Below, one piece after another: positions 16,092-33,042 of a stretch of DNA of 64,000 nt (within the stretch, counting starts at the first letter, position 1; the number at the start of each line of letters is the position of its first letter). The DNA is from Escherichia coli (GTDB lineage Bacteria > Pseudomonadota > Gammaproteobacteria > Enterobacterales > Enterobacteriaceae): the NCBI RefSeq assembly GCF_048403405.1, contig NZ_CP183129.1; one strand, written 5' to 3'. Made by a program: the position numbers and the translations under genes. The notes under the pieces were generated by a model. It searched no databases, was not told where the DNA came from, and saw only the letters and a list, made by a program, of their open reading frames with translations.

Positions 16092-18167
16092 TTAATTCAC
16101 ACCCAGCGCCTTATAAACCGCATCAACCGGGTCTGAGTAAAAACTCACCTGAAACTTGGTAAATAACTCTGCCGGAACCGTTGGAATATCCATAGCCGAG
16201 GACATCGGCAACAGAACCCGTTTTGCGCCGCTGTCGAAGGCGAGCTGTAAACTGGCGGCAAGATCCTGCACCGGGTTAATTACTCCACCAAGGGTCATAC
16301 TGCCCAACACCACCATCTGTTCCTGCACCGGCTTTGCCAGCAATATCGAACATAAAGCGATAAGCGCAGCAAGACTGGTTGCGGTGCTAGGGCCAGTATT
16401 ATGCAGTTCAACGACATGAAGGTGATATTCATGATCAGAGAATTTCGCTGCCGCGCTTACCCGATTCAAATTGCCTTTGAAGTAATCGAAACCGACGCGG
16501 ATAGCTTCTTTCGCGGAGGTATTTGAACCCAGGCCCGATACACTATGCTTACCATTACCGGCAGTCATCTGCGTTTCAAAACGATACAGCCCGGTCATAC
16601 CGCTTTCTGCCTGAGTGACCAAATGCACAACGCCCGGCTTTGGCATTCCGGCAGGAATTAGTTCGCTGCCGCCCTGTTCCGGTACGCTTACAAAAAACTC
16701 TTCCAGCGTTTCGTTATCGATGTAGCTAAAGTTCACATCGAAGAACTCCAGGCCGCCCAGTTTTTTAAGTTGCTCTTTCACTCGACGACGAACTTCCATC
16801 GCATAGGTCAGGCAGACTCGTACATCTTCTTTGCTGTACGCGCCATCGGGATGCATGAGTTTTAACAACCCCGACACTGTACGTCGAACAGCAATCACGT
16901 CACGCTGATTGAGGTTATTTCCCAGCTTGAAGAATTTATCAATTGCATCGGAGAAGCTACGTTTACGCATCTCGCGCATGTATTCAGCGAGATAATCCGT
17001 AATCAAACCATAGCGATTGGTGAAAAATTCCGGGCGCATCTTAGGAATTTCCCAACCAGGAATATAGGCATGGAAGCGGTCAAAAAATGCAGTATCAATC
17101 ATCGCATCCGGGAACGGTGCTAGCAGATGGCTGGTTTTGACCAGTGTATCTACGCTCTGATTGATGTTGCCAACAAACACCATGGAGGCTTTGCCTTCAA
17201 TGGAGTCCCGACCACGAGAGAATGAGCCTGATGCCATGTAATCCTTCATGATCTGCACGCCATCTTTGTCTTTGAAGGTGATCCCTGCCACTTCATCAAA
17301 CGCGACGACGTCCCACATTCCCACAAGACCAATCTGCCGGCTGGCCATGTTGTAAAACAAGTTCGCCACCGTGGTTTGCCCGCCAGATACCAGCAGGGAG
17401 TTAGGAGAGCACTCTTTATAAACATGACTCTTACCTGTACCACGTGGACCAAGCTCGCAGACGTTATAGTTGTTTTCCACAAAGGGAATCATGCGAGTAA
17501 TCAGATGCCACTTGGTACGCTGCTCAATATTTGCAGGTTCCATCCCGACCGAACGTAACAGCACATCAATCCACTGGTCGCGATCAAACTGCTTGCGGGC
17601 TTCAAATACCTCGTCCATATCCATATTTGGCATCTGGATCGGCTTCAGTGTGAACAGCGAGAAAGGAGACGTTTTTTGCCCCTCTTCATAAAAGTAGTTC
17701 ACGGTGATCATGCACCAGATGCCACCAGTCAGCAGTTTCTCGTTGTCTTTCACCATCTGCGACGGCACCAGGGCATCTTTAATGCCAAGGTTAGAGAGCT
17801 GGGCTTCGTAAACGTCTTTCTTCTGATTTAGCTTTACCGTGACCTTATCGATAATCTTGTAAGAACCACGCTCGCGAATTAGTGATTTCACTTTTTCTGC
17901 TTCATCCGGGCGGACGTAGTTATCAGAAAGAATACGCTTAACCGACTGTAGCCCCTGCTCGACAACCTCATCGTCATCGGAGGCACAGTACATACCGAGT
18001 AGATATTCCAGTACGTAAACCGGAACATTCGCCCCTTCTTTAAGTTGCTTAGTCAGATCCTTACGCACCACGCGACCGCGAAAGTGCTGATTCAACAATG
18101 AATCCAGGTCCTGAGCCAACACAGAGGCCGTTTCCATGTTACTGGCTGAGTTATCCTGCTGTTGCAT
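16092..18167 (-). CDS. brxL: BREX BrxL (Lon-like protease-domain ATPase)
   Basis: 691-aa ORF with Walker A (LGPRGTGKSH) and C-terminal Lon-protease-like domain; last gene of the BREX operon. Confidence 0.85.
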   Translation of the reverse strand: MQQQDNSASNMETASVLAQDLDSLLNQHFRGRVVRKDLTKQLKEGANVPVYVLEYLLGMYCASDDDEVVEQGLQSVKRILSDNYVRPDEAEKVKSLIRERGSYKIIDKVTVKLNQKKDVYEAQLSNLGIKDALVPSQMVKDNEKLLTGGIWCMITVNYFYEEGQKTSPFSLFTLKPIQMPNMDMDEVFEARKQFDRDQWIDVLLRSVGMEPANIEQRTKWHLITRMIPFVENNYNVCELGPRGTGKSHVYKECSPNSLLVSGGQTTVANLFYNMASRQIGLVGMWDVVAFDEVAGITFKDKDGVQIMKDYMASGSFSRGRDSIEGKASMVFVGNINQSVDTLVKTSHLLAPFPDAMIDTAFFDRFHAYIPGWEIPKMRPEFFTNRYGLITDYLAEYMREMRKRSFSDAIDKFFKLGNNLNQRDVIAVRRTVSGLLKLMHPDGAYSKEDVRVCLTYAMEVRRRVKEQLKKLGGLEFFDVNFSYIDNETLEEFFVSVPEQGGSELIPAGMPKPGVVHLVTQAESGMTGLYRFETQMTAGNGKHSVSGLGSNTSAKEAIRVGFDYFKGNLNRVSAAAKFSDHEYHLHVVELHNTGPSTATSLAALIALCSILLAKPVQEQMVVLGSMTLGGVINPVQDLAASLQLAFDSGAKRVLLPMSSAMDIPTVPAELFTKFQVSFYSDPVDAVYKALGVN

Positions 18168-18177
18168 AACGCCTCAC

Positions 18178-20775
18178 TTAAAAGAAGTCATCCTGAAATG
18201 CCAGGTCGATCGTGATCGGGTAGCGACCATACTCTGTTGCGCTGTCCGCATTCTCCAGGATAAGAACATACTTGTTTTTACGATTGAATGCCGTCCCCAT
18301 GAGTTTCATGGTTACATCGCGGGTGCGTTTACCCATATCTTCGTTATCACTGTCGAAGCATACTGTTTCCGTGCCGGAGACGACCTGGTTGTTTTCATCG
18401 ACGATAAAGATATTCAGCGTGCGCGGCTCATTTAAATCATTCACTGCCGAAGTCTGAATAAAACCAATTTTATCAATGCTGTTAACCAGTTTGATCACCT
18501 GATCCCGCGCAACGACGGGCACGGGCTGCCGCTGGGGTTGCTTCTCAGCCGCTTTCTTTTCAAGCGCGCGAATCTTCAACACAGGAACACACACTTCCTG
18601 CAGCATGGCTCCGCCATGAACGAAACGAGCACCCCCTACGAAGTGGAAACGCTGTACTCCTTTGGGTAACAGGAATTCACTTTCATCGCTTGCGCCTGCA
18701 GTATCAGCCAGTTTGCCGTGCCAGCAAAATTCACTTTCAGGCAGTTGATGGCCTACAATAAAACGCTTATTCGCTTCAATCGTGTCTTTGGCTTTACTTT
18801 CCAGCTTCGTTTTATCCTGCTCCACCAGCGCTTGTTGTTGGAACAGGAAGCCGTGATCGGCGGTAACAAAAATTCGGCTGGCATTAAATCGGCTACGCAG
18901 GCGTGAAACCAGATCTTTTAGCTCAGTGATTGCACTTCGGCAGGCCTCAAACGTTTTATCTTCCGTTGCAGCCTTATCACCCATGGCATCTATAGTGTCG
19001 TGCCAGATATAAACTACGGAAGCGTTGCGGATTTGCTCGTTCACTTCCTGGTTATTGGCGTTCTGCAAGTCCTTTGCTTTCAGCGCTACACCATTCACCT
19101 TCGCAAGAATAGCGGCTCTTTTTTCAAACCCGGAAGTGGACATCCCATCGGCGTATACTACACCAGAATTATCAGGAAGATAGCTCAACGACTCATGAGG
19201 CAACAGTGCGGCCATGCCCAGTTGGGTATAGCTTGGGAGCACTCCGGTCTGGGAGCGCAGCTCTGCACTGAAGTGCTTCTCATAGTTGATATGCCTGCCC
19301 AGCTCTTCCGCCACTTCGTAGCGCAATGCATCCGAGATCACGACAAAAACACGTTTGACCTGCGAGGTGTCAAACTGACGTTTAACATTCTCTTTATAGA
19401 AATTGCGCTGCAGGGGTATGCCGCTAAACTGCCAGGCCTGCATACGGTTTTCCGCTTCCAGCAGTTTGTTCCAGCCGCGACTTAGTTCAGTCAGATACCA
19501 ATTGCTGTATAACTCTTCGATGAATTTATCCAGTTCATGCAGGATCATCGCCCCTTTGCTGTGCACTGGTGCAGCATATTCATTGAACAAACGATAGGTC
19601 TGATCGAAGCGATAAATTTCGTCACAATAGGCCTTCCAGAACGCACCTGTATCGGGGAAATTAAACCCGTCGGTGTAACGGTTACGCAAATTCAGCAAGC
19701 GTTCTGCCTGACGAATAGCATTCCAGATAGAAAGATACTCTGGGCGGGTTTGGCTCCAGTATTTCGCACTGCGCTCTGAAACCAACGCTTTAAACGCATC
19801 TCTGTCCAGAGTGGTGCTCTCTTCCTGCAACTGTGTCACCAGACCACGGATAATAAGTTGCTCAATAGCCTCGAAGGTTTCACATTTTGCCAGTGTATAT
19901 GGTGAGCTGTAGTTGTAGTGTTCTTTTGGCTGGAGCGTCTGCTGCAAATCCTCTGCACAGTAATCGTATTCTACTTTATAGCGACGATCGTTGCGCCACG
20001 CCCCCATAAAGGCCAGTGACGAGGCCCGACCAGCCGCGGTAGCCAGCACATTTTTACTCAACCAGTCACGATGTGCTTCATCACCCTGCGCCCAGAGATC
20101 GGTACAGAACAGTTTCAGAAGCAGATTTTCCATTGAAGGAGATTCAGACTGGTATCCCAACTCAAGGCGAAGAATTTCCCAAAGTACCTCATCCAGGCCA
20201 AGCTTCGTCAGTACGGCGAAAGTGTTCTCGAGTGCGCTATCATCTTGCTGCCGTGCTGCGACAAACTGCTGAACCAAAGCAAATAGTATTTCTTTGGTTT
20301 CGAAGGTACTGGCCCCGACCACCACCGCCAGCATTTTCTTATCGAGAGAGTTTTCCGTTTCGCGCTCGGTGACCCATCCCTTCAGGATCTGAGTTCGCTT
20401 AACGGTAAAGAAGGCTTTGCGAAGCTGAATATGTTCGCGTAAACCGAGTTGCGGGATACCCAGAGAATTCAGGGTGATCGCCGCATAATCAGCGTGGAAT
20501 TCGGTACTATAGAGGCGGATATCCAGCAACCAGTCCTGCTCGCGAGCAGGAACCTCACAGGTGAAATAGAGTAAAAATTTCTGCTCAGGCTCGTCGATTT
20601 CGAGTCGTTTTTTTGTTGCGAGCACAGAAACGCCACGCATATCCAGCAGCGTGACATTGTCGAGATCCAGCTCATTAATTGAATCAGTGAAGCGTTGTTC
20701 CGGGTCGTGCCAGAAGACGATACGGTTGTCGGTAAACTTCTGACGAAGCCCTGATTCCAGTTCTTTAAATTGCAT
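18178..20775 (-). CDS. pglZ: BREX PglZ (alkaline-phosphatase-superfamily protein)
   Basis: 865-aa ORF with PglZ-type motifs (…VTADHGF…); positioned between the methyltransferase and brxL. Confidence 0.85.
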   Translation of the reverse strand: MQFKELESGLRQKFTDNRIVFWHDPEQRFTDSINELDLDNVTLLDMRGVSVLATKKRLEIDEPEQKFLLYFTCEVPAREQDWLLDIRLYSTEFHADYAAITLNSLGIPQLGLREHIQLRKAFFTVKRTQILKGWVTERETENSLDKKMLAVVVGASTFETKEILFALVQQFVAARQQDDSALENTFAVLTKLGLDEVLWEILRLELGYQSESPSMENLLLKLFCTDLWAQGDEAHRDWLSKNVLATAAGRASSLAFMGAWRNDRRYKVEYDYCAEDLQQTLQPKEHYNYSSPYTLAKCETFEAIEQLIIRGLVTQLQEESTTLDRDAFKALVSERSAKYWSQTRPEYLSIWNAIRQAERLLNLRNRYTDGFNFPDTGAFWKAYCDEIYRFDQTYRLFNEYAAPVHSKGAMILHELDKFIEELYSNWYLTELSRGWNKLLEAENRMQAWQFSGIPLQRNFYKENVKRQFDTSQVKRVFVVISDALRYEVAEELGRHINYEKHFSAELRSQTGVLPSYTQLGMAALLPHESLSYLPDNSGVVYADGMSTSGFEKRAAILAKVNGVALKAKDLQNANNQEVNEQIRNASVVYIWHDTIDAMGDKAATEDKTFEACRSAITELKDLVSRLRSRFNASRIFVTADHGFLFQQQALVEQDKTKLESKAKDTIEANKRFIVGHQLPESEFCWHGKLADTAGASDESEFLLPKGVQRFHFVGGARFVHGGAMLQEVCVPVLKIRALEKKAAEKQPQRQPVPVVARDQVIKLVNSIDKIGFIQTSAVNDLNEPRTLNIFIVDENNQVVSGTETVCFDSDNEDMGKRTRDVTMKLMGTAFNRKNKYVLILENADSATEYGRYPITIDLAFQDDFF

Positions 20776-21344
20776 TATTGATTCTCAAACCATTCGACCA
20801 GTTCATGAGCGCTAGGGCAAGCAGGGTGTCTGGCAGAACTCTGAATATCAAAACCGTGATGCGTTACCATTCTCCTGGCAAATGCGGTTTTAGAACTTCC
20901 CGGTCCCTGTTTTCCTAGCTCGCGTGAAATTACTTTTAAACGATCCCATGGCATTTCAGTTGTAGCTTCAGGTAACTCTTCATTAAATGTGTCTACTTTA
21001 AGCCATTTTTTCATTGCCTCTGAATCGGCAAGAAACCAAGCCTCAACTGCTTTGACTGCGATAAACGAGATGTCGACATCTTGATGGGCAATTCGGGCCC
21101 GTACATCAGCAACAGATGCCGCATCTTCCAGGTCGGTCAGAATACAGATCCGTTCAGCACCTACATTTCTGAGCCTAGCAACGAAATTATCAACATACTT
21201 CGGTAACAGGTTACCACCACCTTTGGCATCAATAACGGGAGTTACCAATTCAAAATTATTCGTGCGCAGAAATGCAATGAACGCTGGTGAATTCACGATG
21301 ATTGACTCAGTATCACCTTCAACGATAAAACCTATTTTTACCAT
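20775..21344 (-). CDS. small TOPRIM-like protein (DUF4276-like) embedded in the BREX operon
   Basis: 189 aa; N-terminal IGFIVEGDTE and downstream ICILTDLED resemble TOPRIM Glu and DxD motifs; start overlaps the ATPase stop by 7 nt and its stop overlaps the pglZ start (TAATG). Confidence 0.6.
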   Translation of the reverse strand: MVKIGFIVEGDTESIIVNSPAFIAFLRTNNFELVTPVIDAKGGGNLLPKYVDNFVARLRNVGAERICILTDLEDAASVADVRARIAHQDVDISFIAVKAVEAWFLADSEAMKKWLKVDTFNEELPEATTEMPWDRLKVISRELGKQGPGSSKTAFARRMVTHHGFDIQSSARHPACPSAHELVEWFENQ

Positions 21345-22459
21345 GGCAAACCGCCATCAAACATATTCATCAGCCACGCGGTATCCAGTGGGATTTCCTT
21401 TTTATCAACCCCCGCATCTGAAGCATGCATCAGCTGAGTTTTCCCCTCTTTTTTACTAACAAACCACAGTTCGTCTGGTTCCAGATTGCGAACAATAGAT
21501 TCACTATGGGTAGTAATAACAATTGGATGATTCAAAGAGGCATTTTCACGCATCAATTGCACAAGTTCCCCAATGGCTTTTGGGTGAATACCGCGTTCAG
21601 GCTCTTCAATAATGGTCATCCCCGTTTGCTGTGCTCGACTCAAGATGGCCGTCATAATACAAAGCGTGAAGATGGTGCCGTCAGAGATAAGATGGGCAGG
21701 AAAGCGGGCACGAGTTCCCTGTTCTTTAAAGGTCAATACCGTTGAGCCATCCAATTTTTGTTTCTCGGTCGATACATTTTCCATCCCCGGAACGATGAGT
21801 TCCATCCACTCCAGTATTTGCTCTTTAAATTCGCTATTCGATTCGAGAGCAGCAAGCACAGAAGCAATGTTTCGACCATGACTGTCCAGAAATGTCGAGT
21901 CAGTTTTGGCGCTATCGGGCTCTTTAGCACGTAACGGATCGATGCGAAAAACAACAATATTGGTCAAAAAAGCGTACAGTTCACTTTTCCCCAGTAGCAT
22001 TAGTGCCGTCATATCTGACGAGTAGTTAGGGATTAAAGTCGCAGGGATTTCATCACTATCGCTCAGGCGAATCATAAGAGTATCAGGGTGCTTACGATCA
22101 ATATAAATATCTCCATCAATGACCAACTTTTCAGTGATTGTTGGTTTTTTATCCATGTTTTTGATCGTCAAGTCATAGGTAAACTGTTTTCCTCCCAGCT
22201 CAATTTGAAGGTGCAGTGAAGCCGTAGTCCGATTTTCCTTACGCAGCTTGTAGCAATGAATCTGCTGAAAACCGCCAAAATCACGGATTGCTTGTGTCGC
22301 CCCGGTTTTCACTACGGCACCAAAAAAAGCCAATGCATCGGTAATGTTACTTTTGCCCGCACCATTGGCTCCAGCAAAGGTGATAAATGGTGGGCTTTCC
22401 ACAAGGGAAAGCTCCGCGATGCTCTTGTAGCCTTTAATAATCAGGGGATGTTGATCCAT
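21338..22459 (-). CDS. ABC-type ATPase (AAA_15/AAA_21-like) embedded in the BREX operon
   Basis: 373 aa; Walker A (GANGAGKSN) near the N-terminus and C-terminal ABC-like H-loop region (IVITTHSESIV); start overlaps the pglX stop (TAATG). Confidence 0.7.
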   Translation of the reverse strand: MDQHPLIIKGYKSIAELSLVESPPFITFAGANGAGKSNITDALAFFGAVVKTGATQAIRDFGGFQQIHCYKLRKENRTTASLHLQIELGGKQFTYDLTIKNMDKKPTITEKLVIDGDIYIDRKHPDTLMIRLSDSDEIPATLIPNYSSDMTALMLLGKSELYAFLTNIVVFRIDPLRAKEPDSAKTDSTFLDSHGRNIASVLAALESNSEFKEQILEWMELIVPGMENVSTEKQKLDGSTVLTFKEQGTRARFPAHLISDGTIFTLCIMTAILSRAQQTGMTIIEEPERGIHPKAIGELVQLMRENASLNHPIVITTHSESIVRNLEPDELWFVSKKEGKTQLMHASDAGVDKKEIPLDTAWLMNMFDGGLPW

Positions 22460-25400
22460 TATGCCTCCTGTGGCGCACTGCCGGTGATCGCCTTGACATC
22501 CGCCAGCAGATCGCCAAATTTGCCGTAGTTAACCTTAACGCCGTCATCCAGATCAATAGTGATACGTCTATCAGCATAGTGACGCAAGCGATCGTCAAAA
22601 TTGCGCAGCTCGTTGAATTTTTTAGTCAACCCATCCAGCTCTTTTTTCAGGCGTGTGGTGGCAGCGCCCGATTCTGCATTTTTAAGCTGATCGTTAACAA
22701 GATCGATATTTCCCTGGTAGCGTGCCAGCAGCGGAACTACATATTCGGTACGCATACGTGACAATGTGCCTTCATTATAACGGTGCAGATACACCAGGCA
22801 CTCAAACGCCTTCTCTTTACCTGAGCTGAATAGCCAGTAAATTGGGCGCTTCTTGTACATCTTCATATGATCTTTCCAGAACTGGGTGGAAAGATAGCGA
22901 CGGATGGTATCCAGCGAAGACTCGCCTTTTTTCGGCTTGATTGCGTACAAGCAGAGGCTTTCGGCGATGAAATCGAGGTTTTCTTGTAAATGTTCTTCGC
23001 CCCAGACTGTGCGAACGAACTCTTTAACGCGGGAGGTAACATCGTCATCGAACCAGTCAGAATCCATTAATGGCAGGATACCATCTTCATCGGCAGGGAA
23101 GGTTTGGTAGGCGCCTTCATCTACTAATTCAGAAAAGCCTTTGTTACCTTCGTGGGCGTAGACCAAGCCTTCGCGATCAAGGGAATAGCGGCCCATCATG
23201 CAGCCAATAGCCAGGCTAAGTGAGTTTATAACCTGAATCGCCTTAAATTGGTTATATTCATCTTTTGAAATTGAGCTTAATGACTGGAAAACATTATTTT
23301 CCAATGTTATTTCTGCCAAGGCAAGATTGTTTTCGTTTAAAATATTGCATTTTTCATAAAATATTTTGTTATTATCACATTCTAGCTCATGTGTTTTGAT
23401 TAACTTTTGATAAAAAACTTCAGTCTGGTTTTTTAATATGTTTACTAGGCTGCCGTTTTGAAACGCATCCTGATTGAAGGAAAACTGATAACTATTTTCC
23501 TGCTGACTCCAATTTTCTTTAGCCAGAGAAATTAGTTCAGCAGTGTTCAAGGATAGGCTCTCAATCATTTTCTCATCAAAAAATGCTGGTAATTTACTTA
23601 TATCCCCCGGTTGATAATTTAATGTTGGAGAGATAGCCTTTATTAAAGAGATAATAATATCACTATTAATAAATGCTAACACAGGCAGGTAAAGGTCTTC
23701 ATTATTAACAAATAACGAAGACCCTGCATTGTCAAATAATGAGGACTCTGAGACTCTTGCAGATGTCTTGCTTGAGGAAAGAGCGTTCCATGTAATCCCT
23801 TTTTTAAATATAAAATCTAAATTATAGTTATGCGAACGTACCTTTCCTGATTTTTCATCGGTAAAATTTTGAATTTCCCGACCATCGTCGAACCAATTTA
23901 CGACATAATCAAGATTACCGTACCACTTTCTATATTCACCACCTTTCTGATAAGGGAACCATTTCAGACCGGATTTTTTAGCTTGAATACGATCAGTAAA
24001 ATCAAAACCGATATTCGCGAAATTAACTTCATGCCAAAAACGTAAAAAACGCTCATTATCCGCTGTTGCCATTCCAAGGCGTGTTGAGGCAATTTGAGAT
24101 ATTTTTTTATTATCAAATAAATTAACCTCACTTTCGCTGAGCCAATACGCAATCGGTGCACCGGGGATTTTTTGGAAGTCATCGGCAGCGGCAGTCTTTA
24201 AACGATCGTTTTTAACCGGAAATTCTTTTGGATATCCTTCATCATTGATATCGTCATTCTCAGTATAAGAGAATGCCCCTTGATAAGAAGGAATGTGAAC
24301 ATTTCTAAACACTGTTGCATTGGTACCAAAGGCAATTTTCATAACGCCATTGCCCATATGTACCATCGTCTCAATAGTGTATTTATCCAATATATTCGCA
24401 CGCATATTTTCATAGCTAGACAAAAACATCCATGATTGCATAGTCACCATTGAGTTGTACGCAGCATCTTTGAGCCAGGAAAAACCCCGCTCAATAAACA
24501 TCGCAAACAAATCTGACTTACTGTCCGGGAATTGTTTCTTAGCGAACTCTTTCAGTTCACCGTTCATCCCTTTCCCACCCATATACGGCGGGTTCGCCAC
24601 AACCGCATCGTAACGCTGCGCCAAAATCCACGCCTGCTGAATATACGGAATCAGCTCTGCTGCCGCTTCTTTCTGCGGGATATCACCCTCGACAGCCAGA
24701 CGATATAGTCCACCCAGGAATGTCTTCAGCGCCGTTTCATCTTCCTGCGGCACCTGAATCAGTGATCCCAGCGTTTTTGCACTAGTGAACAAAGCCAGAG
24801 TACGCATCAGTAGCTTATATTCCGCGCTGTCGGTATTGGCCAGTGACGTCCCTTGGGTAAACATATCTCCCATGCTGCCGCGTTGCGCCTGCTGATGAAA
24901 GTTCAGCTTGGTCCACAGTTCAGCGATATCCAGTTTACTTTCCTGCAGCGAAACGATATTCAGGCGAACGCCACGGCCCAGAATACGACGATCGTCCTGA
25001 CGGGCAAGCATCAGCATCGCAAAACCGGAAAGCTGCGCCGCACGGTCATCAATATCTAGGCCGAAAATATTGTTTTCCAGAATCAGCTGCGGAATGTCAC
25101 GGGTACGGTAGCCACGCTCTTCGTAAATGGCCTTCAGCACGTTATAGGCTTCGGTCAGGATATGCCCGGAGCCGCAGGCCGGGTCCAGCACCTTAATACT
25201 TTCTGGTTCAATGCTTGATGGGGTAATAGCCGCCAGCTGTGCCTGCACTTCCGGCGTTTGTTCCGCTGGCTCAATGTAGTACGGCATTTTGCCTTTCAGG
25301 CTGGAGTCCGGATAGGTTTGCAGCCACTGGCGGCCCACCGAGTTCTGCACCAGATACTGCACAATCCAGTTCGGAGTAAACAGCTGGGTAGCGGCAGGAA

Positions 25401-26112
25401 TATCTTCGCTCTTCACCACCTTGCCGATCACATCATCTTTTTTCTCGGAAATATAAAACTGATACAACCAGCCGATCACTTCGACCTGTTTCCAGTCTTC
25501 TTCAGGAATCGTGTCCACCAGCCCGCGCAGAATAGAGTCGGTGCGAGTCAGGTTATCCGGCAATACCAGTTCGATATCATCATTGACTGCTTCGAACAGG
25601 AAAGGCATAGCGCCGTGCAGCGCATGGCACTGTGCAAGCAATAGTTCACGGTACAGCTCTTCGTCACGATCGCCCGCCAGCTTCATCTCCACCAGGCGTG
25701 ATTTGTCCAGCCCAAGTGCATCAGCCACTTCCGGCACATGATCCAGAACCTCAAAACTCCCTTCCAGGGTCGGGTGAGACAGCATACGGAAACCGTGATC
25801 AAGATAGCCATGCAGCTCCATATAGCGAATAGCGCAAAAGCGGTTAAACCAGGTGTAAGCGATGTGCTCCACCAGCACGTCATAGCCCTGCTTTTCTGCA
25901 CGCTTGACCAGACGTTCACGGCGTGAAGCCAGTGATTTATCCAGCGAGAACTGACCATATCGCACACTGTCGCCAAGATCGGTTGCTTGCGCTATTTGCA
26001 GGTTGCCTTTTTTATCGGCGTCAATACCCAGCGTGGTCAGTTTTTGCATGACCGCATCGCGGAACTGTTTACGTGCCACCGGGGCGTATTTTTTGATATT
26101 TGACGTATTCAT
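22459..26112 (-). CDS. pglX: BREX PglX (N6-adenine DNA methyltransferase / specificity protein)
   Basis: 1217-aa ORF with methyltransferase motif I (LDPACGSGHIL) and motif IV (VVANPPYMGG); AT-rich central to C-terminal block. Confidence 0.85.
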   Translation of the reverse strand: MNTSNIKKYAPVARKQFRDAVMQKLTTLGIDADKKGNLQIAQATDLGDSVRYGQFSLDKSLASRRERLVKRAEKQGYDVLVEHIAYTWFNRFCAIRYMELHGYLDHGFRMLSHPTLEGSFEVLDHVPEVADALGLDKSRLVEMKLAGDRDEELYRELLLAQCHALHGAMPFLFEAVNDDIELVLPDNLTRTDSILRGLVDTIPEEDWKQVEVIGWLYQFYISEKKDDVIGKVVKSEDIPAATQLFTPNWIVQYLVQNSVGRQWLQTYPDSSLKGKMPYYIEPAEQTPEVQAQLAAITPSSIEPESIKVLDPACGSGHILTEAYNVLKAIYEERGYRTRDIPQLILENNIFGLDIDDRAAQLSGFAMLMLARQDDRRILGRGVRLNIVSLQESKLDIAELWTKLNFHQQAQRGSMGDMFTQGTSLANTDSAEYKLLMRTLALFTSAKTLGSLIQVPQEDETALKTFLGGLYRLAVEGDIPQKEAAAELIPYIQQAWILAQRYDAVVANPPYMGGKGMNGELKEFAKKQFPDSKSDLFAMFIERGFSWLKDAAYNSMVTMQSWMFLSSYENMRANILDKYTIETMVHMGNGVMKIAFGTNATVFRNVHIPSYQGAFSYTENDDINDEGYPKEFPVKNDRLKTAAADDFQKIPGAPIAYWLSESEVNLFDNKKISQIASTRLGMATADNERFLRFWHEVNFANIGFDFTDRIQAKKSGLKWFPYQKGGEYRKWYGNLDYVVNWFDDGREIQNFTDEKSGKVRSHNYNLDFIFKKGITWNALSSSKTSARVSESSLFDNAGSSLFVNNEDLYLPVLAFINSDIIISLIKAISPTLNYQPGDISKLPAFFDEKMIESLSLNTAELISLAKENWSQQENSYQFSFNQDAFQNGSLVNILKNQTEVFYQKLIKTHELECDNNKIFYEKCNILNENNLALAEITLENNVFQSLSSISKDEYNQFKAIQVINSLSLAIGCMMGRYSLDREGLVYAHEGNKGFSELVDEGAYQTFPADEDGILPLMDSDWFDDDVTSRVKEFVRTVWGEEHLQENLDFIAESLCLYAIKPKKGESSLDTIRRYLSTQFWKDHMKMYKKRPIYWLFSSGKEKAFECLVYLHRYNEGTLSRMRTEYVVPLLARYQGNIDLVNDQLKNAESGAATTRLKKELDGLTKKFNELRNFDDRLRHYADRRITIDLDDGVKVNYGKFGDLLADVKAITGSAPQEA

Positions 26113-26160
26113 ATGAAGTCCTGAAAAGGGCAGACAATGTCTGCCCTGAAAATGGGGAAA

Positions 26161-29100
26161 TTACTGAAGCTGTACGCGTTCACCTGCGTTAATGGCATCC
26201 ATTAGCGTTTTACGGAGTTGTTCCAGCGCTTTGTCTACCTGTTCGGCGTTATCCAGCGTTGTCACACCCGCCGCTCGTTCCATCGTTTTACGCGTGTTTA
26301 CGTAGATGGTTTTTTTCAGCTTGGGTTCAGGCTTAACTACGGGGTCGATAATCCCAGGCTGAGGAGCAGGTTTTGGATCAGACACTTTCTTACGCTGATC
26401 CTCAACCCAGCCGTTCAGCCGTTCATTCGCTTTAAATTGTAGCGCTCGAACCTCAGCCTGTTCTTCCATAATCTGTGGGATCAGGCCGTTCTGCTCCACT
26501 TTCTTACGCGATTGTTGCATCGGGTGTAAAAGCGAGTGTTGCAAGTCAGCAGGGACGTGCATCTCCTGCATGCTTTGCTTAAGTTCATTGATATGACCAT
26601 CGATCTGTAGCAGCGCATGGCTTCGATATTCTTCGACCAGACGCTGGTTGATGGTTTCAACGGTTTCAATCAGCGGGATAATCCGATGCAGTTCTCCATA
26701 AGGTCGTGCCTTGCTGTAGATCCCTTCCAGTTCCTGTAACGCCTTTTGGGCCGTTTCGTCTTTATCCAGCGCGTTACGGTTAGCTTTAAAACTGCCATTC
26801 AACGCCATACTCAAGCGCTGCCAGGTAGCGTATTGGTTTTTGTAGAAGCTAACCAAATCGTCCCAGTCTTCCGAGAAATCTTTAAGATCGTCAGCCGCTG
26901 CGGTGATTTTTTCAATGACCGCGTATTCCTCTTTCTCGTTAAGGATCCCGTTCAGCAATACCAGACCTTCTTCTATCTCTTTACGGCCAGGGTTTTGTCC
27001 ACTCTCTGCACGAGTTTTAAAAACAGTCAACTCGCTATTCCAGCGGCCAAAGAGTTCGCGAATATGAGAGACCAACGACTGTTCTTCACGCTCGTTAAAC
27101 GGCTCTCCAGCAATCTCTGCCATCAGCTGCGCAGCTTTAGTCAACTGTGCTTCATCATGGCGACGAACTTTATGCAGACGCAAATCGCTGTAACGACGTG
27201 AATTATTAAACGCGTCCCACGCCTGCTTCAGTGCGATTTCACTGCCTTGCAGAGTGAAGCTGTATTTACCGCTGCGTGCCAGCCGAGCAACCAGCAATTT
27301 GACTTCATCTTCCGGCCAGCCAAACGGGCGACGGCCAAAAGTGGTGAGAATATCCCGCAGGTAAACTGGCTTATGAGTCTCAATACTCATGCTGATCCAG
27401 TTATCCACTTCACGCATCGCCTCTGGGTTGGATTCTTCCATACCCCCGAGATCGAGCTGGGTATCATTTTCTACTGTCAACAGCGCGTGAGTTTCACGAT
27501 TTACGTCTCCGGTACTAAGACGCAGCAATTTTAGTTTAGAGAAACTGTTCTCGATAACGTAACCGCAGGCTGCATCCACGATAGCTAACGGCGAAGAGGA
27601 TTTCTTATCCAGCCGTTCGCCCAGCGCCCAGACATCAGCTTGAGCCAGCAAGCCTTCAATCTGCGCCTTAAGCGTTTTTTCACGCATACTATTTTCACGG
27701 CCTTTTTCCGCCAACAGCGTTGCCTGTTCCGGGCGCTGGCCGCTTTGCTTGCTGAGGAAAGCTTTGGTCTGAGCGTACATGGTCAGGTCTTGCCAGGTAC
27801 GAGCCTCATCAGGCAGGCAAATTAAGATGCAGTCTTTACTGTCCGTCATCAGCAGACTATTAGAATGCGCACCCTTATAGCTCTCGTAGTTCGAGTCCAG
27901 TGGCGTGAGCACTTTAACCACCAGATCGTTAAGATTCGCACCATCCAGCGGATGTCCGTTACAAAAACGACTGATATCAAAATCCTGCTTATTGGCCGGA
28001 TAGCGATATCTTTTGTTTTTCAGGATCTCTTCGAAAATGATGGTTGAGAGTTGCTTATTGATGGTGGTGAATTCCACGTCAATATTGCGGATTTCGTTTT
28101 CAATCTCTTTTTCTTCGTTAGTGAGAAAAACAAATTTGTCATCAATACGCGAGATCAGCATCTCAGCCTGCAGACGATTAAGGCTGGCTTCAATCTGTCG
28201 ACGGAGTTCCACTTTATCAGTATCAATACGCTCAATAGAGAGCGTGACGAGATTGTCGAGAGTACTTTTCAGCACATCGACGTAGCGGATCAGGAACAGT
28301 GTCTTTAGTAGTTTGCCGTCAAATTCAGTCAGTGACGGAGACTGGCAGGCCTGAATAATAGTGCGGCTAACTGCAGGTTCCAGGAAGCTTTCAATCGCTG
28401 AATAGAAGCGCCAGAACGGGACCAGACTATCCAGACCATCTGCGGAGATTTGCACAGCAGCCGACTGGAAGGCATCTAGCAAAGAGCGCTCCCCCATTGC
28501 CAGCTGCTTACCTGCGGCCCCTTTAGTACGGATTGATTCAAAGACTTTTTGCAGGATCTGGTAATGCCACGGTACAAACGGATAGTTATCCACGAACTCG
28601 CGGCTGTTTGTATAGGCTCGCAGAGTAGCGGTCGTTGTCGTGTCAAACGCCAACTGGTTACGCAGAATATCGCCTTTTTCCTGCCAGATAGCTTCCAGCG
28701 CCGGTATTGCCGCATCGGTTTTTACCAGCAGACGTTTCTGGATAACTTCTGAAGTATTCGAGCTGGAGAGTTGTAAGCGCGTTGAGAAACGTCCCTGAAT
28801 CTTGGAGAAGTCCTGACCATCACGACTGCTCATACCGCCAATAGCAGCATTAATGTCAGCCTGGGAGGTAACTATCACCCATGCCCGCCCACCACAAATA
28901 ACGCCCAAGTTTTCGGTGATAGTTTGCAGCTTGAGCATCATCTGAGCATCTTTACCAATGAACTGACCAACTTCATCGACCATAAACAGGATATTGCGAT
29001 TACCATGGCTGTCGAGCCACTCTTTCACCCACGTACAGAAATTTTTGATATCCAATGGGAAGTTCTTATCAAGTTGCTCGATCCATTGACGAGAAGACTC

Positions 29101-29775
29101 TTCACTCTGGCCTGTAGCAATACTCAGTGCCTGAGCCATCTGATCGTTTATCATCAGATAAACATCACGTTCGTCTTCCCAGCGAGACCCTGTAATGTCC
29201 GCGAAGGCTGCCCTAAAGGTATCAAATTGTCCACGCTTATCGAGCTCACGTTCCAGATGTGCAATATGTGGGAAGTCGCCACAATAACCAGCTAGTTCGT
29301 TAAAGACTTTCAGAAAGACTTTGAGTATGGCATCAACGCCATCTTCAACATTCGCACGTGAGTCAATATTGAATAATATGACATCGGTCGGATGTTGTAC
29401 CGATTTCCGAATATCAGCCAATAGCAGTGCATCATCAATTTTCTCTTCAAAGAAGGAAAGTGCATTACGAGTGACACCATTATGGCTTACTTCGCGGTTC
29501 GCCAGTAGATAGGATAAGATCTTAATGAAGTGTGATTTACCCGAACCAAAGAAGCCTGAAACCCAGACGCCTATTTTGTCAGCAAGCTGTAATCTGCCAG
29601 GGCCAGTAGCAGGGGCATATACTTCAAAGAACTGACGCAGGTGACCATCCAGCTCTCTGGTAATGACATACTCATCCAGTTCTATCCAGGCGCTTTCGTC
29701 GTCGGTCTGCTCGGCTTTAACCACGCCGTTAATATTACGTTTTAGCTGTTTCTCAAAAATTTGTTCAATATTCAT
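26161..29775 (-). CDS. brxC: BREX BrxC/PglY (large P-loop ATPase)
   Basis: 1204-aa ORF with N-terminal Walker A (GFFGSGKSHFIKIL); position between brxB and pglX. Confidence 0.85.
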   Translation of the reverse strand: MNIEQIFEKQLKRNINGVVKAEQTDDESAWIELDEYVITRELDGHLRQFFEVYAPATGPGRLQLADKIGVWVSGFFGSGKSHFIKILSYLLANREVSHNGVTRNALSFFEEKIDDALLLADIRKSVQHPTDVILFNIDSRANVEDGVDAILKVFLKVFNELAGYCGDFPHIAHLERELDKRGQFDTFRAAFADITGSRWEDERDVYLMINDQMAQALSIATGQSEESSRQWIEQLDKNFPLDIKNFCTWVKEWLDSHGNRNILFMVDEVGQFIGKDAQMMLKLQTITENLGVICGGRAWVIVTSQADINAAIGGMSSRDGQDFSKIQGRFSTRLQLSSSNTSEVIQKRLLVKTDAAIPALEAIWQEKGDILRNQLAFDTTTTATLRAYTNSREFVDNYPFVPWHYQILQKVFESIRTKGAAGKQLAMGERSLLDAFQSAAVQISADGLDSLVPFWRFYSAIESFLEPAVSRTIIQACQSPSLTEFDGKLLKTLFLIRYVDVLKSTLDNLVTLSIERIDTDKVELRRQIEASLNRLQAEMLISRIDDKFVFLTNEEKEIENEIRNIDVEFTTINKQLSTIIFEEILKNKRYRYPANKQDFDISRFCNGHPLDGANLNDLVVKVLTPLDSNYESYKGAHSNSLLMTDSKDCILICLPDEARTWQDLTMYAQTKAFLSKQSGQRPEQATLLAEKGRENSMREKTLKAQIEGLLAQADVWALGERLDKKSSSPLAIVDAACGYVIENSFSKLKLLRLSTGDVNRETHALLTVENDTQLDLGGMEESNPEAMREVDNWISMSIETHKPVYLRDILTTFGRRPFGWPEDEVKLLVARLARSGKYSFTLQGSEIALKQAWDAFNNSRRYSDLRLHKVRRHDEAQLTKAAQLMAEIAGEPFNEREEQSLVSHIRELFGRWNSELTVFKTRAESGQNPGRKEIEEGLVLLNGILNEKEEYAVIEKITAAADDLKDFSEDWDDLVSFYKNQYATWQRLSMALNGSFKANRNALDKDETAQKALQELEGIYSKARPYGELHRIIPLIETVETINQRLVEEYRSHALLQIDGHINELKQSMQEMHVPADLQHSLLHPMQQSRKKVEQNGLIPQIMEEQAEVRALQFKANERLNGWVEDQRKKVSDPKPAPQPGIIDPVVKPEPKLKKTIYVNTRKTMERAAGVTTLDNAEQVDKALEQLRKTLMDAINAGERVQLQ

Positions 29776-29787
29776 TGCTGTCGTCTT

Positions 29788-30390
29788 TTAACGAGGAGTC
29801 AAAGTCGCCGCCGGTCTGGTTTCTGGTACCAGTCTGAAGGCGCGGTAATAGTTACGAGAATTAATGCCAGCGAGTGGAGAAAGATCGTATCCGCTATAGG
29901 TGCCTGGATAGAACATCAGCAATGGTGTAAATCCCATCACGTCCTGAAGTGCGCTCATTAGCTCATGACCACGAACCAACGGCCAGGCGTTACCAAGTCC
30001 CGTCAGAATGACAAATTGCTGCGCAGGAAGATCGACCGTGCGTGCAATATATTCCGCGATTTTTTTCTGGCTTAGCGGGGCAGCCAGATGCTTTTTCAGT
30101 GTCTCAAGGCCAAGCTCAGGCTCTCGTTGGCAGATACGTTCAAAGAGCTTACGTTCTTCCAACATATCGATGATAATCTGGAAGATATTTAGCGTTTTAT
30201 AGGTGTACTTTTTATCCAGTTTTTTGAATAAAAAGTGCAAGTACTCGCGGACCTGAAGCTCTTGTTTTGCCGGATAATCAAAGATCCAGAAGCCAATCTC
30301 ATTGCCGGAACCTTGGTTTTTCAAAAAACGGTCGTCGCCGATACGTTCTTCTAACTGTTTTAATCGGTATTCAAGGATCGGGTCATTCAT
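29788..30390 (-). CDS. brxB: BREX BrxB (DUF1788-like)
   Basis: 200-aa ORF between brxA and brxC; 4-nt overlap with brxA. Confidence 0.7.
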   Translation of the reverse strand: MNDPILEYRLKQLEERIGDDRFLKNQGSGNEIGFWIFDYPAKQELQVREYLHFLFKKLDKKYTYKTLNIFQIIIDMLEERKLFERICQREPELGLETLKKHLAAPLSQKKIAEYIARTVDLPAQQFVILTGLGNAWPLVRGHELMSALQDVMGFTPLLMFYPGTYSGYDLSPLAGINSRNYYRAFRLVPETRPAATLTPR

Positions 30391-31007
30391 GCGTTACCCT
30401 CCAGAATAGGGAGCAGTTCGGCTTTGTTTAAACGATGCAAGGCCGCTGCAACAACTGGTAGCAGGAAAACGTTTTGTAAATTGCGGCGGCGTGGGCTATC
30501 CAGGTAACCAGCTTCTGCGAGAGCCTTAATAAGATTGTTACCCATCTTTTGGATCGATGAATCAGAAAAAGCTGCCAGTTCCGGGTGTAAACGGAGATTC
30601 TCATCCACAAACTCACTCCAACAATTTATACCAAGCTTTTCTTTAAACTGCTGACGAGCTGGATTTACAACTTCAGCAATAAACGTCGCAACAACTGGAG
30701 ACTGGATCATCAACGCAACCAACAACATTTGCAGACGCTCGCTTTCACTGCCATCAGCAATCAGTTGCCAGCACTCCCGATCCAGGGTCATCAATCGCAG
30801 CCTTAAGGTTCGGGCATAACGATTTGCCGTACTCGTGGAGGACGCCTGAAGAATATTTTCATTGATTATTTGCTGCTGCCAGGTTGTTTCATCTGGTTCA
30901 GAGAGCAACAGCTCAGCAATGGTTCGGCTCTCACGAACCATCAACGAACCACCCAGCAGATCGCCAATCCAGCGTTTGTCATTTTTTGTCATGGTATTTA
31001 TCATCAA
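30387..31007 (-). CDS. brxA: BREX BrxA (DUF1819-like)
   Basis: 206-aa first gene of the operon, preceded by ~570 bp of non-coding DNA. Confidence 0.7.
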   Translation of the reverse strand: MMINTMTKNDKRWIGDLLGGSLMVRESRTIAELLLSEPDETTWQQQIINENILQASSTSTANRYARTLRLRLMTLDRECWQLIADGSESERLQMLLVALMIQSPVVATFIAEVVNPARQQFKEKLGINCWSEFVDENLRLHPELAAFSDSSIQKMGNNLIKALAEAGYLDSPRRRNLQNVFLLPVVAAALHRLNKAELLPILEGNA

Positions 31008-32920: not shown

Positions 32921-33007
32921 AAGCCTGTTGATGTGGGTTGAGTCAGGTTGACTTCAGTTGAGGAGAAAAGCTGGAAAAGCCTTGCGTGGTGCGGATTTCA
33001 GGCATAA

Positions 33008-33030
33008 AAAAAGACCTCAGTTGAGGTCTA
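33008..33030 (-). terminator. rho-independent terminator of leuX
   Basis: Hairpin agacctca-ac-tgaggtct followed by a T-run on the minus strand, just past the tRNA 3' end. Confidence 0.5.
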
Positions 33031-33042
33031 TTTACATACTTT

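What the first reader, a model, noticed from the sequence alone, without database searches (positions are those of the whole stretch)
23220..24520. AT-rich block inside pglX immediately downstream of the NPPY catalytic motif
pglX is moderately GC-rich at both ends, but a ~1.3 kb internal segment (encoding roughly residues 540-965) is strikingly AT-rich and low in complexity at the DNA level. It begins just after the NPPY motif IV (codons near position 24600). That is where a target-recognition region would sit in a gamma-class methyltransferase, so the block looks like a horizontally exchanged specificity module, implying the BREX recognition motif was swapped by recombination.
Basis: seen in the sequence. 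Interest (0 to 1): 0.6.

Follow-up and report, generated by a model that had tools for sequence, protein, structure and literature searches.

The report
Swappable DNA-recognition cassette inside BREX pglX
The AT-rich stretch in the middle of this E. coli anti-phage methyltransferase gene is the part that reads the DNA target, and comparison with other strains shows it has been exchanged by recombination; this is a clear example of a known kind of variation, not a new system.

Summary
Within pglX (22459-26112, minus strand, 1217 aa), GC falls from 0.51 to 0.35 and GC3 from 57% to 32% (Fisher p = 1e-16). The best-fit limits are aa 552-965 (nt 24459-23218). NPPY lies at 24583-24594. There are no repeats, so "low complexity" is not supported.

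By alignment to solved BrxX/PglX structures, the block is wider than the target-recognition domain (TRD). It holds the post-catalytic methyltransferase lobe with the loop that reads base pair 6, the hinge, the TRD and the two spacer helices.

Three results show exchange:
- Strain ws5-3 carries the same island at 99-100% identity but is unalignable over aa 647-969.
- A Salmonella contig is about 89% identical upstream and 98-100% identical in the TRD.
- The post-catalytic lobe groups across the two E. coli backbone lineages.

Two crossovers fall in one roughly 45-nt segment encoding DFxKIPGxPIAYW.

Every allele examined has the AT-rich middle, and so do distant homologues in mid- or high-GC hosts. 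AT-richness therefore marks the cassette class, not a recent event.

TRD variability in PglX is published, so this is a new member of a known kind. The recognised motif is unmeasured.

The parts
22459..26112 (-). pglX (brxX), the BREX type 1 N6-adenine methyltransferase and specificity factor; intact 1217-aa ORF
   Evidence: ORF listing and translation. Full-length match to solved BrxX/PglX 8zek, 9ewz and 8c45 at E = 0 over residues 1-1215. 100% identical to the annotated pglX of E. coli TUM14771. PADLOC PglX model matched at E = 0.
24496..26112 (-). Conserved N-terminal backbone, aa 1-539: N-terminal domain plus the methyltransferase core, with motif I GSG (aa 314-316, nt 25165-25173) and motif IV NPPY (aa 507-510, nt 24583-24594). 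It ends in junction motif FPDSKSDLFAMF (aa 528-539, nt 24496-24531).
   Evidence: GC 0.52, GC3 0.58. 92-97% identical among backbone-A alleles and about 80% to backbone B. Motif positions. The junction motif is conserved even in Leuconostoc PglX.
24184..24495 (-). Cassette M1, aa 540-643: the post-catalytic lobe of the methyltransferase domain. It includes the loop (aa ~586-596, nt 24325-24357) that aligns with HS BrxX loop 587-601, which reads the 6th base pair.
   Evidence: GC 0.39, GC3 0.39. M1 falls into discrete types that cut across the two backbones: L001 = L002 at 100% and L012 at 80%, versus L003 with L006-L008 at 73-87%. Loop mapping. The function of the loop is from PMC11842806.
24142..24180 (-). 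Hinge junction motif D-F-Q-K-I-P-G-A-P-I-A-Y-W (aa 645-657), a conserved segment where two independent crossovers map
   Evidence: In the nucleotide alignment, ws5-3 switches from identical to unalignable here and the Salmonella contig switches from unalignable to identical here. The motif is conserved in most of the alleles and homologues shown. It corresponds to the hinge, residues 638-675 in HS and 654-659 in Salmonella.
23563..24141 (-). Cassette M2a, aa 658-850: the target-recognition domain (TRD), which reads base pairs 1-4 in HS BrxX
   Evidence: GC 0.34, GC3 0.27. It aligns to HS TRD 651-837 and Salmonella TRD 662-849. Four of the five HS base-contact residues are replaced while backbone contacts are kept. 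It is 98% identical in protein and 98-100% in DNA to a Salmonella allele, and 55-62% identical to TRDs of Leuconostoc, Marinobacter-type and Acinetobacter-plasmid PglX.
23218..23562 (-). Cassette M2b, aa 851-965: the two long spacer helices. This is the most divergent part and among the most AT-rich.
   Evidence: GC 0.31. Identity to every other allele is 14-24% over aa 881-960. Distant homologues give about 25% identity or no BLAST hit. It corresponds to Salmonella spacer helices 850-960.
22462..23217 (-). Conserved C-terminal backbone, aa 966-1217. It opens with junction motif AIGCMMGRYSLDREGLVYAHEGNKGF (aa 968-993, nt 23134-23211).
   Evidence: GC 0.49, GC3 0.55. 92-96% identical within backbone A and 80-87% to backbone B. 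Junction alignment. It corresponds to the Salmonella C-terminal region 961-1225.
16092..30992 (-). The rest of the BREX-1 operon: brxA 30387-30992, brxB 29788-30390, brxC 26161-29775, an embedded HEC-01A/HEC-01B pair at 21338-22459 and 20775-21344, pglZ 18178-20775, brxL 16092-18167
   Evidence: RefSeq annotation of the identical locus. ORFs. PADLOC HEC-01A E = 1e-181 and HEC-01B E = 5e-100.
31576..33127 (-). Island anchor: tRNA-Leu(CAA) at 33043-33127 and a frameshifted tyrosine integrase pseudogene at about 31576-32843
   Evidence: ARAGORN, Rfam and RefSeq annotation. leuX is E. coli defence hotspot 37 (PMC12707154).

Best explanation
The AT-rich block is the specificity-determining part of the BREX type 1 methyltransferase PglX.

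It has two adjacent cassettes:
- M1 (aa ~540-643) is the post-catalytic lobe of the methyltransferase domain. Its loop aligns with the one that reads the sixth base pair in E. coli HS BrxX.
- M2 (aa ~658-965) is the target-recognition domain, which reads base pairs 1-4, plus the two spacer helices.

The cassettes are bounded by three conserved motifs: FPDSKSDLFAMF, DFxKIPGxPIAYW and IGCMMGRYSLDREGL. The conserved backbone on either side provides homology for recombination. A cassette arriving on another BREX island or plasmid can therefore replace the resident one while the rest of the operon stays unchanged. Because PglX directs both self-methylation and recognition of unmethylated phage DNA, one exchange resets both sides of the system to a new 6-bp motif.

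Shown here: the compositional block, its domain content by alignment to solved structures, the collapse of identity, same flanks with a different cassette, the same cassette on different flanks, and the crossover location.

Inferred: that the motif differs from GGTAAG and GATCAG, that M1 sets position 6, and that the AT-rich composition reflects cassettes circulating between hosts, including low-GC ones, faster than they ameliorate.
For: Composition:
- GC 0.35 vs 0.51 and GC3 32% vs 57%, p = 1e-16, with breakpoints at aa 552-965.

Domain content:
- Full-length homology to solved BrxX/PglX.
- Published domain limits place HS MTD at 211-650, TRD at 651-837 and the bp-6 loop at 587-601. Salmonella TRD is at 662-849, spacer helices at 850-960 and the C-terminal region from 961.

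Identity collapse:
- In a panel of 10 intact E. coli alleles, the flanks form two backbone lineages, 92-99% identical within and 80-87% between. M2 is 20-39% identical between all distinct alleles.
- 342 of 350 E. coli genomes with pglX match the gene incompletely; most listed records match in two flank pieces.
- The M2 DNA occurs in only 8 of 5426 genomes, all at 100%.

Same flanks, different cassette:
- The ws5-3 island at the same tRNA-Leu site is 99-100% identical from brxA to beyond brxL, but 38-53% identical in 200-column bins across window ~24034-23150 (0.67 in the bin at the crossover). A 588-nt perfectly identical run ends at aa 646.

Same cassette, different flanks:
- Salmonella contig L017 is 80-96% identical in DNA over aa 272-542, 46-67% over M1 and 98-100% over the TRD.

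Crossover location:
- Both switches fall in the same ~45-nt hinge-motif segment.

M1 incongruence:
- M1 types a and b each occur on both backbones and with several different TRDs.

Decoupling across phyla:
- Leuconostoc and Levilactobacillus PglX are 33-36% identical in the methyltransferase core but 55-57% in the TRD.
- 48 full-length representatives have TRD identity of 39-54% against a median of 40% for the methyltransferase core (aa 211-530) and the C-terminal region.

Contact residues:
- HS K681, D684, R751 and Q784 align to L, A, Y and N here. N823 and the backbone contacts are kept. The bp-6 loop is 4 aa shorter.

Generality of the AT shift:
- All 12 E. coli alleles show it.
- So do four distant homologues in mid- or high-GC hosts. 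One has TRD GC 0.37 inside a gene of GC 0.63-0.65.
Against: - No methylome was available, so the change of motif is inferred from TRD divergence and replaced contact residues. The contact mapping rests on an alignment at about 25-35% identity.
- The Salmonella evidence is a 1.6-kb contig from a draft assembly. Its species label is taken from the record, and it ends inside the TRD, so the 3' junction of that allele is unseen.
- No donor of this cassette was identified, and the direction of exchange is unknown.
- Distant homologues were chosen by TRD similarity, which inflates TRD identity relative to backbone identity for that set.
- AT-richness is common to all alleles, so it cannot date or prove a swap in this strain.
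- The spacer helices diverge even more than the TRD, which a pure DNA-recognition account does not explain.
Confidence: 0.85

Rival explanations
1. The block diverged in place. Strong diversifying selection or relaxed constraint, together with AT-biased mutation, eroded the region within each lineage, with no exchange of segments between pglX genes.
For: TRDs are known to evolve fast (PMC12839542). The spacer helices show almost no similarity to any other allele. The block is enriched in N, S, F, I and K.
Against: ws5-3 is 99-100% identical across about 18 kb of island, including a perfect 588-nt run up to aa 646, and then immediately unalignable. In-place divergence cannot give saturated divergence next to zero divergence. 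The TRD DNA is 98-100% identical to a Salmonella allele whose methyltransferase core is about 11% diverged. M1 types are shared across backbones.
Confidence: 0.04
2. Exchange is real, but the AT-richness does not come from low-GC donors. Cassette alleles are too divergent to recombine homologously with each other, so they miss GC-biased gene conversion and drift towards the AT-biased mutational equilibrium. The conserved flanks recombine and stay at host GC.
For: Every cassette type in E. coli is AT-rich, although the types are only 20-39% identical to each other. In distant homologues the cassette GC3 follows host GC3 but lies below it: 0.54 vs 0.65-0.68, 0.39 vs 0.49-0.60, 0.27 vs 0.49-0.56, and small dips in low-GC hosts. 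GC-biased conversion and AT-biased mutation in bacteria are taken from general knowledge and were not tested here.
Against: In L014 the TRD alone has GC3 0.29, while the adjoining spacer (0.77) and flanks (0.82-0.84) are at host level. That looks like a recent import rather than slow drift. The closest TRD relatives include low-GC Firmicutes. The two causes are not mutually exclusive, and nothing here separates them.
Confidence: 0.3
3. The low GC simply reflects the amino-acid composition required by the TRD and coiled-coil fold (N, K, I, F and S are encoded by AT-rich codons). It carries no information about origin.
For: N is 9.9% vs 3.2%, S 9.2% vs 5.3% and F 7.1% vs 3.9% in the block versus the rest of the protein, while R, G and L are depleted. 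GC1 and GC2 fall as well.
Against: Synonymous positions shift most. GC3 is 0.27-0.39 in the block and 0.55-0.58 in the flanks of the same gene, which shares one transcript and expression level.
Confidence: 0.08
4. The block is an inserted foreign element (intein, IS remnant, nested gene), or an AT-rich regulatory island that binds H-NS or carries internal promoters, rather than part of the enzyme.
For: All 7 sigma-70-like matches in the pglX region fall inside the block.
Against: The reading frame is continuous and the block aligns residue by residue with the methyltransferase lobe, TRD and spacer of solved PglX structures. There are no flanking repeats. The promoter-like count equals the shuffle expectation (7 vs 6.9 +/- 2.5). 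No other copy exists in the window.
Confidence: 0.02

Closest known systems
BREX type 1 PglX/BrxX of E. coli HS (GGTAAG; PDB 9EWZ, 8ZEK) and Salmonella Typhimurium (GATCAG; PDB 8C45, 8Q56)
   Same: Full-length homologue with the same four-part architecture, the same motifs I and IV and the same operon. [quoted passage not shown] Point mutations in the TRD change the motif (PMC11341690, PMC11842806). Divergence between HS and StySA inside pglX has already been attributed to the variable TRD (PMC9009780).
   Different: This allele has a different M1 type and a different TRD plus spacer, about 25-35% identical to HS in the block. Four of the five base-contact residues are replaced, so a different motif is expected but unmeasured. 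The natural crossovers at the KIPG hinge, the separate assortment of M1 and M2, and the AT-rich composition were not found in the papers read.
Type I restriction-modification HsdS subunits: TRDs separated by conserved regions and reshuffled by homologous recombination
   Same: Variable DNA-recognition domains are flanked by conserved segments that serve as crossover sites. New specificities arise by exchange. The spacer helices of PglX mimic HsdS spacers (PMC11341690).
   Different: Here the TRD is part of the methyltransferase polypeptide, and there is one TRD for an asymmetric 6-bp site. A second, smaller specificity element sits inside the methyltransferase domain.
Type IIL/IIG MmeI-family enzymes, and TRD movement in Helicobacter pylori methyltransferases (Furuta et al., cited in PMC12839542)
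   Same: A gamma-class N6-adenine methyltransferase is followed by a TRD. MmeI is the closest structural relative of PglX (PMC11341690). Specificity changes through TRD residues or whole-domain movement.
   Different: PglX has no nuclease domain. It has extra N- and C-terminal domains and works within a six-gene system without DNA cleavage.
Recombinase-driven, shufflon-like phase-variable pglX loci with a second partial pglX copy (recalled from Goldfarb et al. [quoted passage not shown]
   Same: Both are ways of changing PglX.
   Different: The 64-kb window has no second pglX copy or silent cassette, no invertase next to pglX and no long inverted repeats. Variation here is between strains by homologous exchange, not switching within a cell.

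Membership tests
BREX type 1 PglX (BrxX) methyltransferase | Full-length sequence homology to experimentally characterised PglX/BrxX | tested here: met
   phmmer E = 0 with residues 1-1215 aligned to 8zek, 9ewz and 8c45. PADLOC PglX model PDLC02521 matched at E = 0.
BREX type 1 PglX (BrxX) methyltransferase | Gamma-class N6-adenine methyltransferase motifs: motif I GxG upstream of motif IV NPPY | tested here: met
   GSG at aa 314-316 and NPPY at aa 507-510. These match GxG 315-317 and NPPY 509-512 in Salmonella PglX.
BREX type 1 PglX (BrxX) methyltransferase | Operon context brxA-brxB-brxC-pglX-pglZ-brxL | tested here: met
   ORFs and RefSeq annotation of the 99.993%-identical locus. An extra HEC-01A/B pair lies between pglX and pglZ.
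BREX type 1 PglX (BrxX) methyltransferase | Methylates the fifth adenine of an asymmetric 6-bp motif and is required for phage exclusion | not testable with these tools
   This needs methylome sequencing and phage assays.
Recombinationally exchangeable specificity cassette (as in HsdS TRDs) | A hypervariable segment bounded by conserved segments | tested here: met
   Flanks are 92-99% identical within a backbone. M2 is 20-39% identical between all distinct alleles. Conserved junction motifs lie at aa 528-539, 645-657 and 968-993.
Recombinationally exchangeable specificity cassette (as in HsdS TRDs) | Same flanks with a different cassette in a close relative | tested here: met
   ws5-3 is 99-100% identical over the island and 38-53% identical in 200-column bins across ~24034-23150.
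Recombinationally exchangeable specificity cassette (as in HsdS TRDs) | Same cassette on different flanks | tested here: met
   In Salmonella contig L017 the TRD is 98-100% identical in DNA, the methyltransferase core about 89% and M1 46-67%. This rests on a single short contig.
Recombinationally exchangeable specificity cassette (as in HsdS TRDs) | Cassette exchange changes the recognised DNA sequence | not testable with these tools
   Supported only indirectly. Four of the five HS base-contact positions are replaced. Published engineering shows that TRD residues set the motif.
Shufflon / phase-variable pglX | A second (partial) pglX copy, inverted repeats and an adjacent invertase or recombinase | tested here: not met
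   tblastn of PglX and blastn of the block against the window find only the gene itself. Only short chance inverted repeats are present. The only integrase is the frameshifted island integrase next to tRNA-Leu.

The most novel reading that the evidence does not exclude
They would be joined at a universally conserved hinge motif (DFxKIPGxPIAYW) that acts as a recombination anchor. The cassettes would belong to a pool shared across phyla. That pool would keep an AT-rich signature even inside 65%-GC genes, so the GC dip could serve as a general sequence-only marker of the specificity module in BREX and related methyltransferases.
Probability: 0.4. Interest if true: 0.5.

Novelty: new member of a known kind. 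Interest (0 to 1): 0.35.

Why it matters
PglX decides which 6-bp motif BREX treats as self, so a cassette exchange changes which phages and plasmids a strain excludes while the rest of the machinery stays the same.

This locus and its near-isogenic partner ws5-3 form a natural matched pair for testing that. The mapped junctions at FPDSKSDLFAMF, KIPGxPIAYW and IGCMMGRYSLD suggest where chimeric PglX proteins could be joined to reprogram BREX. That extends the published point-mutation engineering.

The finding does not alter the current picture of BREX. TRD variability in PglX and TRD exchange in restriction-modification systems are both established.

Tried and rejected
- The word-indexed protein search listed only PglX fragments of 762 aa or less, so it could not give backbone identities for full-length proteins. 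The exhaustive representative search was used for that.
- I tried to predict the motif from Supplementary Fig. 15 of PMC11341690, which lists about 30 enterobacterial PglX homologues with motifs. The machine-read alignment and motif strings are too corrupted to use, so no motif is proposed.
- Tandem and dispersed repeat searches found nothing that would support low complexity, a mobile-element insertion or a shufflon.
- The promoter and terminator scan showed no excess over shuffles, so the regulatory-island idea was dropped.
- The plasmid collection held no close copy of this TRD. The best match was 55.5%, on an Acinetobacter plasmid, so no vector or donor was identified.
- Literature searches for natural PglX cassette exchange or a GC anomaly found only general statements that the TRD is variable.
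- The scans of genome contigs and metagenome contigs were not run. The Salmonella contig already gave the same-cassette, different-flank case, and the cost was not justified.
- No structure prediction was run, because solved full-length homologues exist.
- Searches were script errors and were repeated. The mismatch line was a coordinate bug. One search gives the correct figure of 99.993% identity to TUM14771.
Full report
**Source and context**

The window is E. coli chromosome. A 27.6-kb stretch (window 10459-38111) is 99.993% identical to strain TUM14771. The finding lies in a BREX type 1 island inserted next to tRNA-Leu(CAA) at 33043-33127, the leuX defence hotspot described in PMC12707154.

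The genes on the minus strand, in order, are:

| Feature | Window coordinates |
|---|---|
| frameshifted integrase | ~31576-32843 |
| brxA | 30387-30992 |
| brxB | 29788-30390 |
| brxC | 26161-29775 |
| pglX (1217 aa) | 22459-26112 |
| PADLOC HEC-01A | 21338-22459 |
| PADLOC HEC-01B | 20775-21344 |
| pglZ | 18178-20775 |
| brxL | 16092-18167 |

The pglX product aligns over its full length with the solved BrxX/PglX structures of E. coli HS and Salmonella at E = 0.

**The observation**

- GC is 0.29-0.43 for aa ~540-960 and 0.44-0.59 elsewhere in the gene.
- The interval 23220-24520 has GC 0.351, against 0.478 +/- 0.047 for all 1301-nt windows. That is the lowest 1.55%, and only 51741-54031 is equally AT-rich.
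- GC3 is 32% in the block and 57% outside it (Fisher p = 1.1e-16).
- A two-breakpoint fit gives aa 552-965, nt 24459-23218.
- NPPY is at nt 24594-24583.
- The block is not repetitive or of notably low complexity.

**What the block encodes**

Published domain limits are as follows.
- E. coli HS BrxX: N-terminal domain 1-210, methyltransferase domain 211-650, TRD 651-837, C-terminal domain 838-1205. Loop 587-601 of the methyltransferase domain reads the sixth base pair, and the TRD reads base pairs 1-4 (PMC11842806).
- Salmonella PglX: methyltransferase region 227-661, hinge 654-659, TRD 662-849, two spacer helices 850-960, C-terminal region 961-1225 (PMC11341690).

Using the alignment, the block covers four parts:

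| Part | Residues | Content |
|---|---|---|
| M1 | ~540-643 | last ~100 residues of the methyltransferase domain, including the bp-6 loop |
| hinge | 645-657 | conserved motif DFQKIPGAPIAYW |
| M2a | 658-850 | TRD |
| M2b | 851-965 | spacer helices |

Its sharp 3' edge at aa 965 coincides with the end of the spacer helices. The block is therefore wider than a TRD.

**Identity collapse**

Of the 350 E. coli complete genomes that carry pglX (out of 5426), only 8 match the whole gene. The rest match incompletely; most listed records match in two pieces, the N- and C-terminal flanks. The M2 DNA occurs only in those 8 genomes, at 100% identity.

I fetched 12 E. coli loci and aligned the 10 intact alleles.
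- Residues 1-530 and 966-1217 form two backbone lineages. Lineage A has the HEC-01-type slot filled and lineage B has it empty. Identity is 92-99% within a lineage and 80-87% between them.
- Residues 631-965 are only 20-39% identical between any two distinct alleles, whatever the backbone.
- Residues 531-630 group differently from the backbone. L001 and L002 are identical and 80% identical to L012, which is lineage B. L003, which is lineage A, is 73-87% identical to L006-L008, which are lineage B.

**Direct evidence for exchange**

1. Strain ws5-3 (L002) carries the same island at the same tRNA-Leu site, with identical BrxB, HEC-01B and BrxL proteins.
   - At the nucleotide level the islands are 99-100% identical from brxA to beyond brxL, apart from patches inside pglX and a few in brxC.
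   - Window ~24034-23150 drops to 38-53% identity in 200-column bins (0.67 in the bin at the crossover).
   - A perfect 588-nt run (aa 451-646) ends at aa 647, and alignability returns at about aa 969.
2. A Salmonella enterica contig (L017, protein P0009) shows the opposite pattern. It is 80-96% identical in DNA over aa 272-542, 46-67% over M1 (it carries the other M1 type) and 98-100% over the TRD.
3. In a multiple alignment of the junction, the ws5-3 switch and the Salmonella switch fall in the same ~45-nt segment. That segment encodes D-F-x-K-I-P-G-x-P-I-A-Y-W, window nt ~24142-24180.
4. The other cassette limits are also conserved motifs: FPDSKSDLFAMF at aa 528-539 and AIGCMMGRYSLDREGL... 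from aa 968.
5. M1 type a (…HMGNGVMKIAFG…) occurs with at least four different TRDs. M1 type b (…HLGARAFGQISGEVVQ…) occurs with at least five, including this window's TRD in Salmonella.

In-place divergence cannot produce saturated divergence directly next to zero divergence. Nor can it make a TRD far more similar between species than the conserved catalytic core.

**Wider relatives**

The TRD (aa 641-850) shows these identities:
- 55-57% to PglX of Leuconostoc and Levilactobacillus, whose methyltransferase cores are only 33-36% identical;
- 59-62% to Marinobacter-type C-half proteins and a metagenomic protein;
- 55.5% to an Acinetobacter plasmid PglX.

Among 48 full-length representatives from the 1.84-billion-protein library, TRD identity is 39-54%. 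The median is 40% for both the methyltransferase core (aa 211-530) and the C-terminal region, and the spacer helices are about 25% identical or give no hit. That set was selected on TRD similarity, so the excess is partly by construction.

The informative contrast is with same-backbone E. coli alleles, which are 93-97% identical in the backbone and 26-37% in M2.

**Likely change of motif**

In the phmmer alignment, HS base-contact residues K681, D684, R751 and Q784 correspond to L679, A682, Y763 and N795 here.
- N823, which contacts A4, is kept as N832.
- The phosphate contacts K719, G721, S767 and T821 are kept.
- The bp-6 loop is different and 4 residues shorter.

HS and Salmonella D23580 share the type-b loop and both have G at position 6 (GGTAAG and GATCAG). 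A different motif is therefore expected for this allele. It has not been measured and I could not predict it.

**The AT-richness**

All 12 E. coli alleles have the same GC dip over gene nt ~1500-2850, although their cassettes are unrelated in sequence. The table gives GC3 by region for distant homologues in mid- or high-GC hosts.

| Locus | N-terminal | M1 | TRD | Spacer | C-terminal |
|---|---|---|---|---|---|
| window | 0.58 | 0.39 | 0.27 | 0.33 | 0.55 |
| L014 | 0.82 | 0.60 | 0.29 | 0.77 | 0.84 |
| L016 | 0.60 | 0.43 | 0.39 | 0.49 | 0.49 |
| L020 | 0.49 | 0.36 | 0.27 | 0.27 | 0.56 |
| L022 | 0.68 | 0.54 | 0.54 | 0.64 | 0.65 |

Homologues in low-GC hosts show only small dips.

The dip is strongest at synonymous positions, so amino-acid composition cannot be the whole cause, although N, S, F and I are enriched. 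It is a property of the cassette class, not a mark of a recent event in this strain. Two causes remain open and may both act:
- cassettes move between hosts, including low-GC ones, faster than they ameliorate;
- cassettes drift towards AT because they cannot recombine with non-identical alleles.

**Comparison with what is known**

- Divergence between HS and StySA inside pglX has been attributed to the variable TRD (PMC9009780).
- TRD residues have been engineered to change the motif (PMC11341690, PMC11842806).
- TRD exchange is classical for HsdS and for other methyltransferases (references in PMC12839542).

In the papers I could search, I did not find the natural crossovers at the hinge motif, the separate assortment of M1 and M2, or the compositional signature. 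These are modest additions to an established picture.

A shufflon-type mechanism is excluded for this locus. The window has no second pglX copy, no silent cassette and no invertase next to pglX.

**Verdict**

This is a new specificity allele of a known system that varies in a known way. Interest is moderate to low.

Noticed in passing
window 20775-22459 (minus strand); L004, L014, L016, L018, L019: The slot between pglX and pglZ holds a PADLOC HEC-01A/HEC-01B pair here: an AAA ATPase with weak AriA similarity plus a 189-aa protein. Other BREX loci carry different cargo in the same slot: other ATPase pairs, AAA_21+DUF4276, a bAvd-like gene, or RelB/YoeB. E. coli backbone lineage B has nothing there. 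The slot looks like a hotspot for embedded defence or toxin-antitoxin genes.
   Followed up: partly
L005 4001-7667; L011 3903-7572: Two of the 12 sampled E. coli pglX genes are frameshifted, one of them annotated as two CDS, while the neighbouring BREX genes are intact. This fits frequent inactivation of pglX.
   Followed up: no
P0041, P0047, P0108 (583-597 aa); PADLOC models PDLC02525 and PDLC02516: Some PglX relatives (Marinobacter-type, seen on many contigs) are C-half-only ORFs that start just before the KIPG hinge motif. PADLOC also has separate N-half (1-643) and C-half (635-1205) PglX models. The hinge is therefore also a natural gene-split point.
   Followed up: no
L014 3001-6666: In a pglX gene of GC 0.63-0.65, the TRD alone has GC 0.37 and GC3 0.29, while the adjoining spacer helices and flanks are at host GC. 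This is a far sharper dip than in E. coli, and it is confined to the TRD.
   Followed up: partly
window 24826-26013 and 26214-26613, 27413-27613, 28414-28613: Between TUM14771 and ws5-3, patches of 4-14% divergence lie in the N-terminal half of pglX and in brxC, within an otherwise 99-100% identical island. The 3' part of pglX (22567-23196) shows about 8% divergence, mostly synonymous. This suggests several recombination tracts that extend beyond the cassette.
   Followed up: partly
window 51741-54031: This is the only other place in the window as AT-rich as the pglX block. It contains a 555-aa ORF (52118-53785, minus strand) with no NCBIfam or PADLOC match, next to a YhcH/YjgK-family gene (53908-54369).
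   Followed up: partly
window 14934-15075, 44099-44293, 61692-61807 (all minus strand): Rfam matches above the gathering score: isrN Hfq-binding sRNA just downstream of the BREX island, Ysr276 antisense RNA, and a Magnesium-II (Mg2+-responsive) riboswitch.
   Followed up: no
window 10685-11440 (minus strand): A WYL-domain protein (PADLOC WYL, E = 2e-16) lies about 4.6 kb beyond brxL, past an IS3 pseudogene and several hypothetical genes. It could be a BrxR-like regulator displaced from the operon, or it may belong to a neighbouring system.
   Followed up: no
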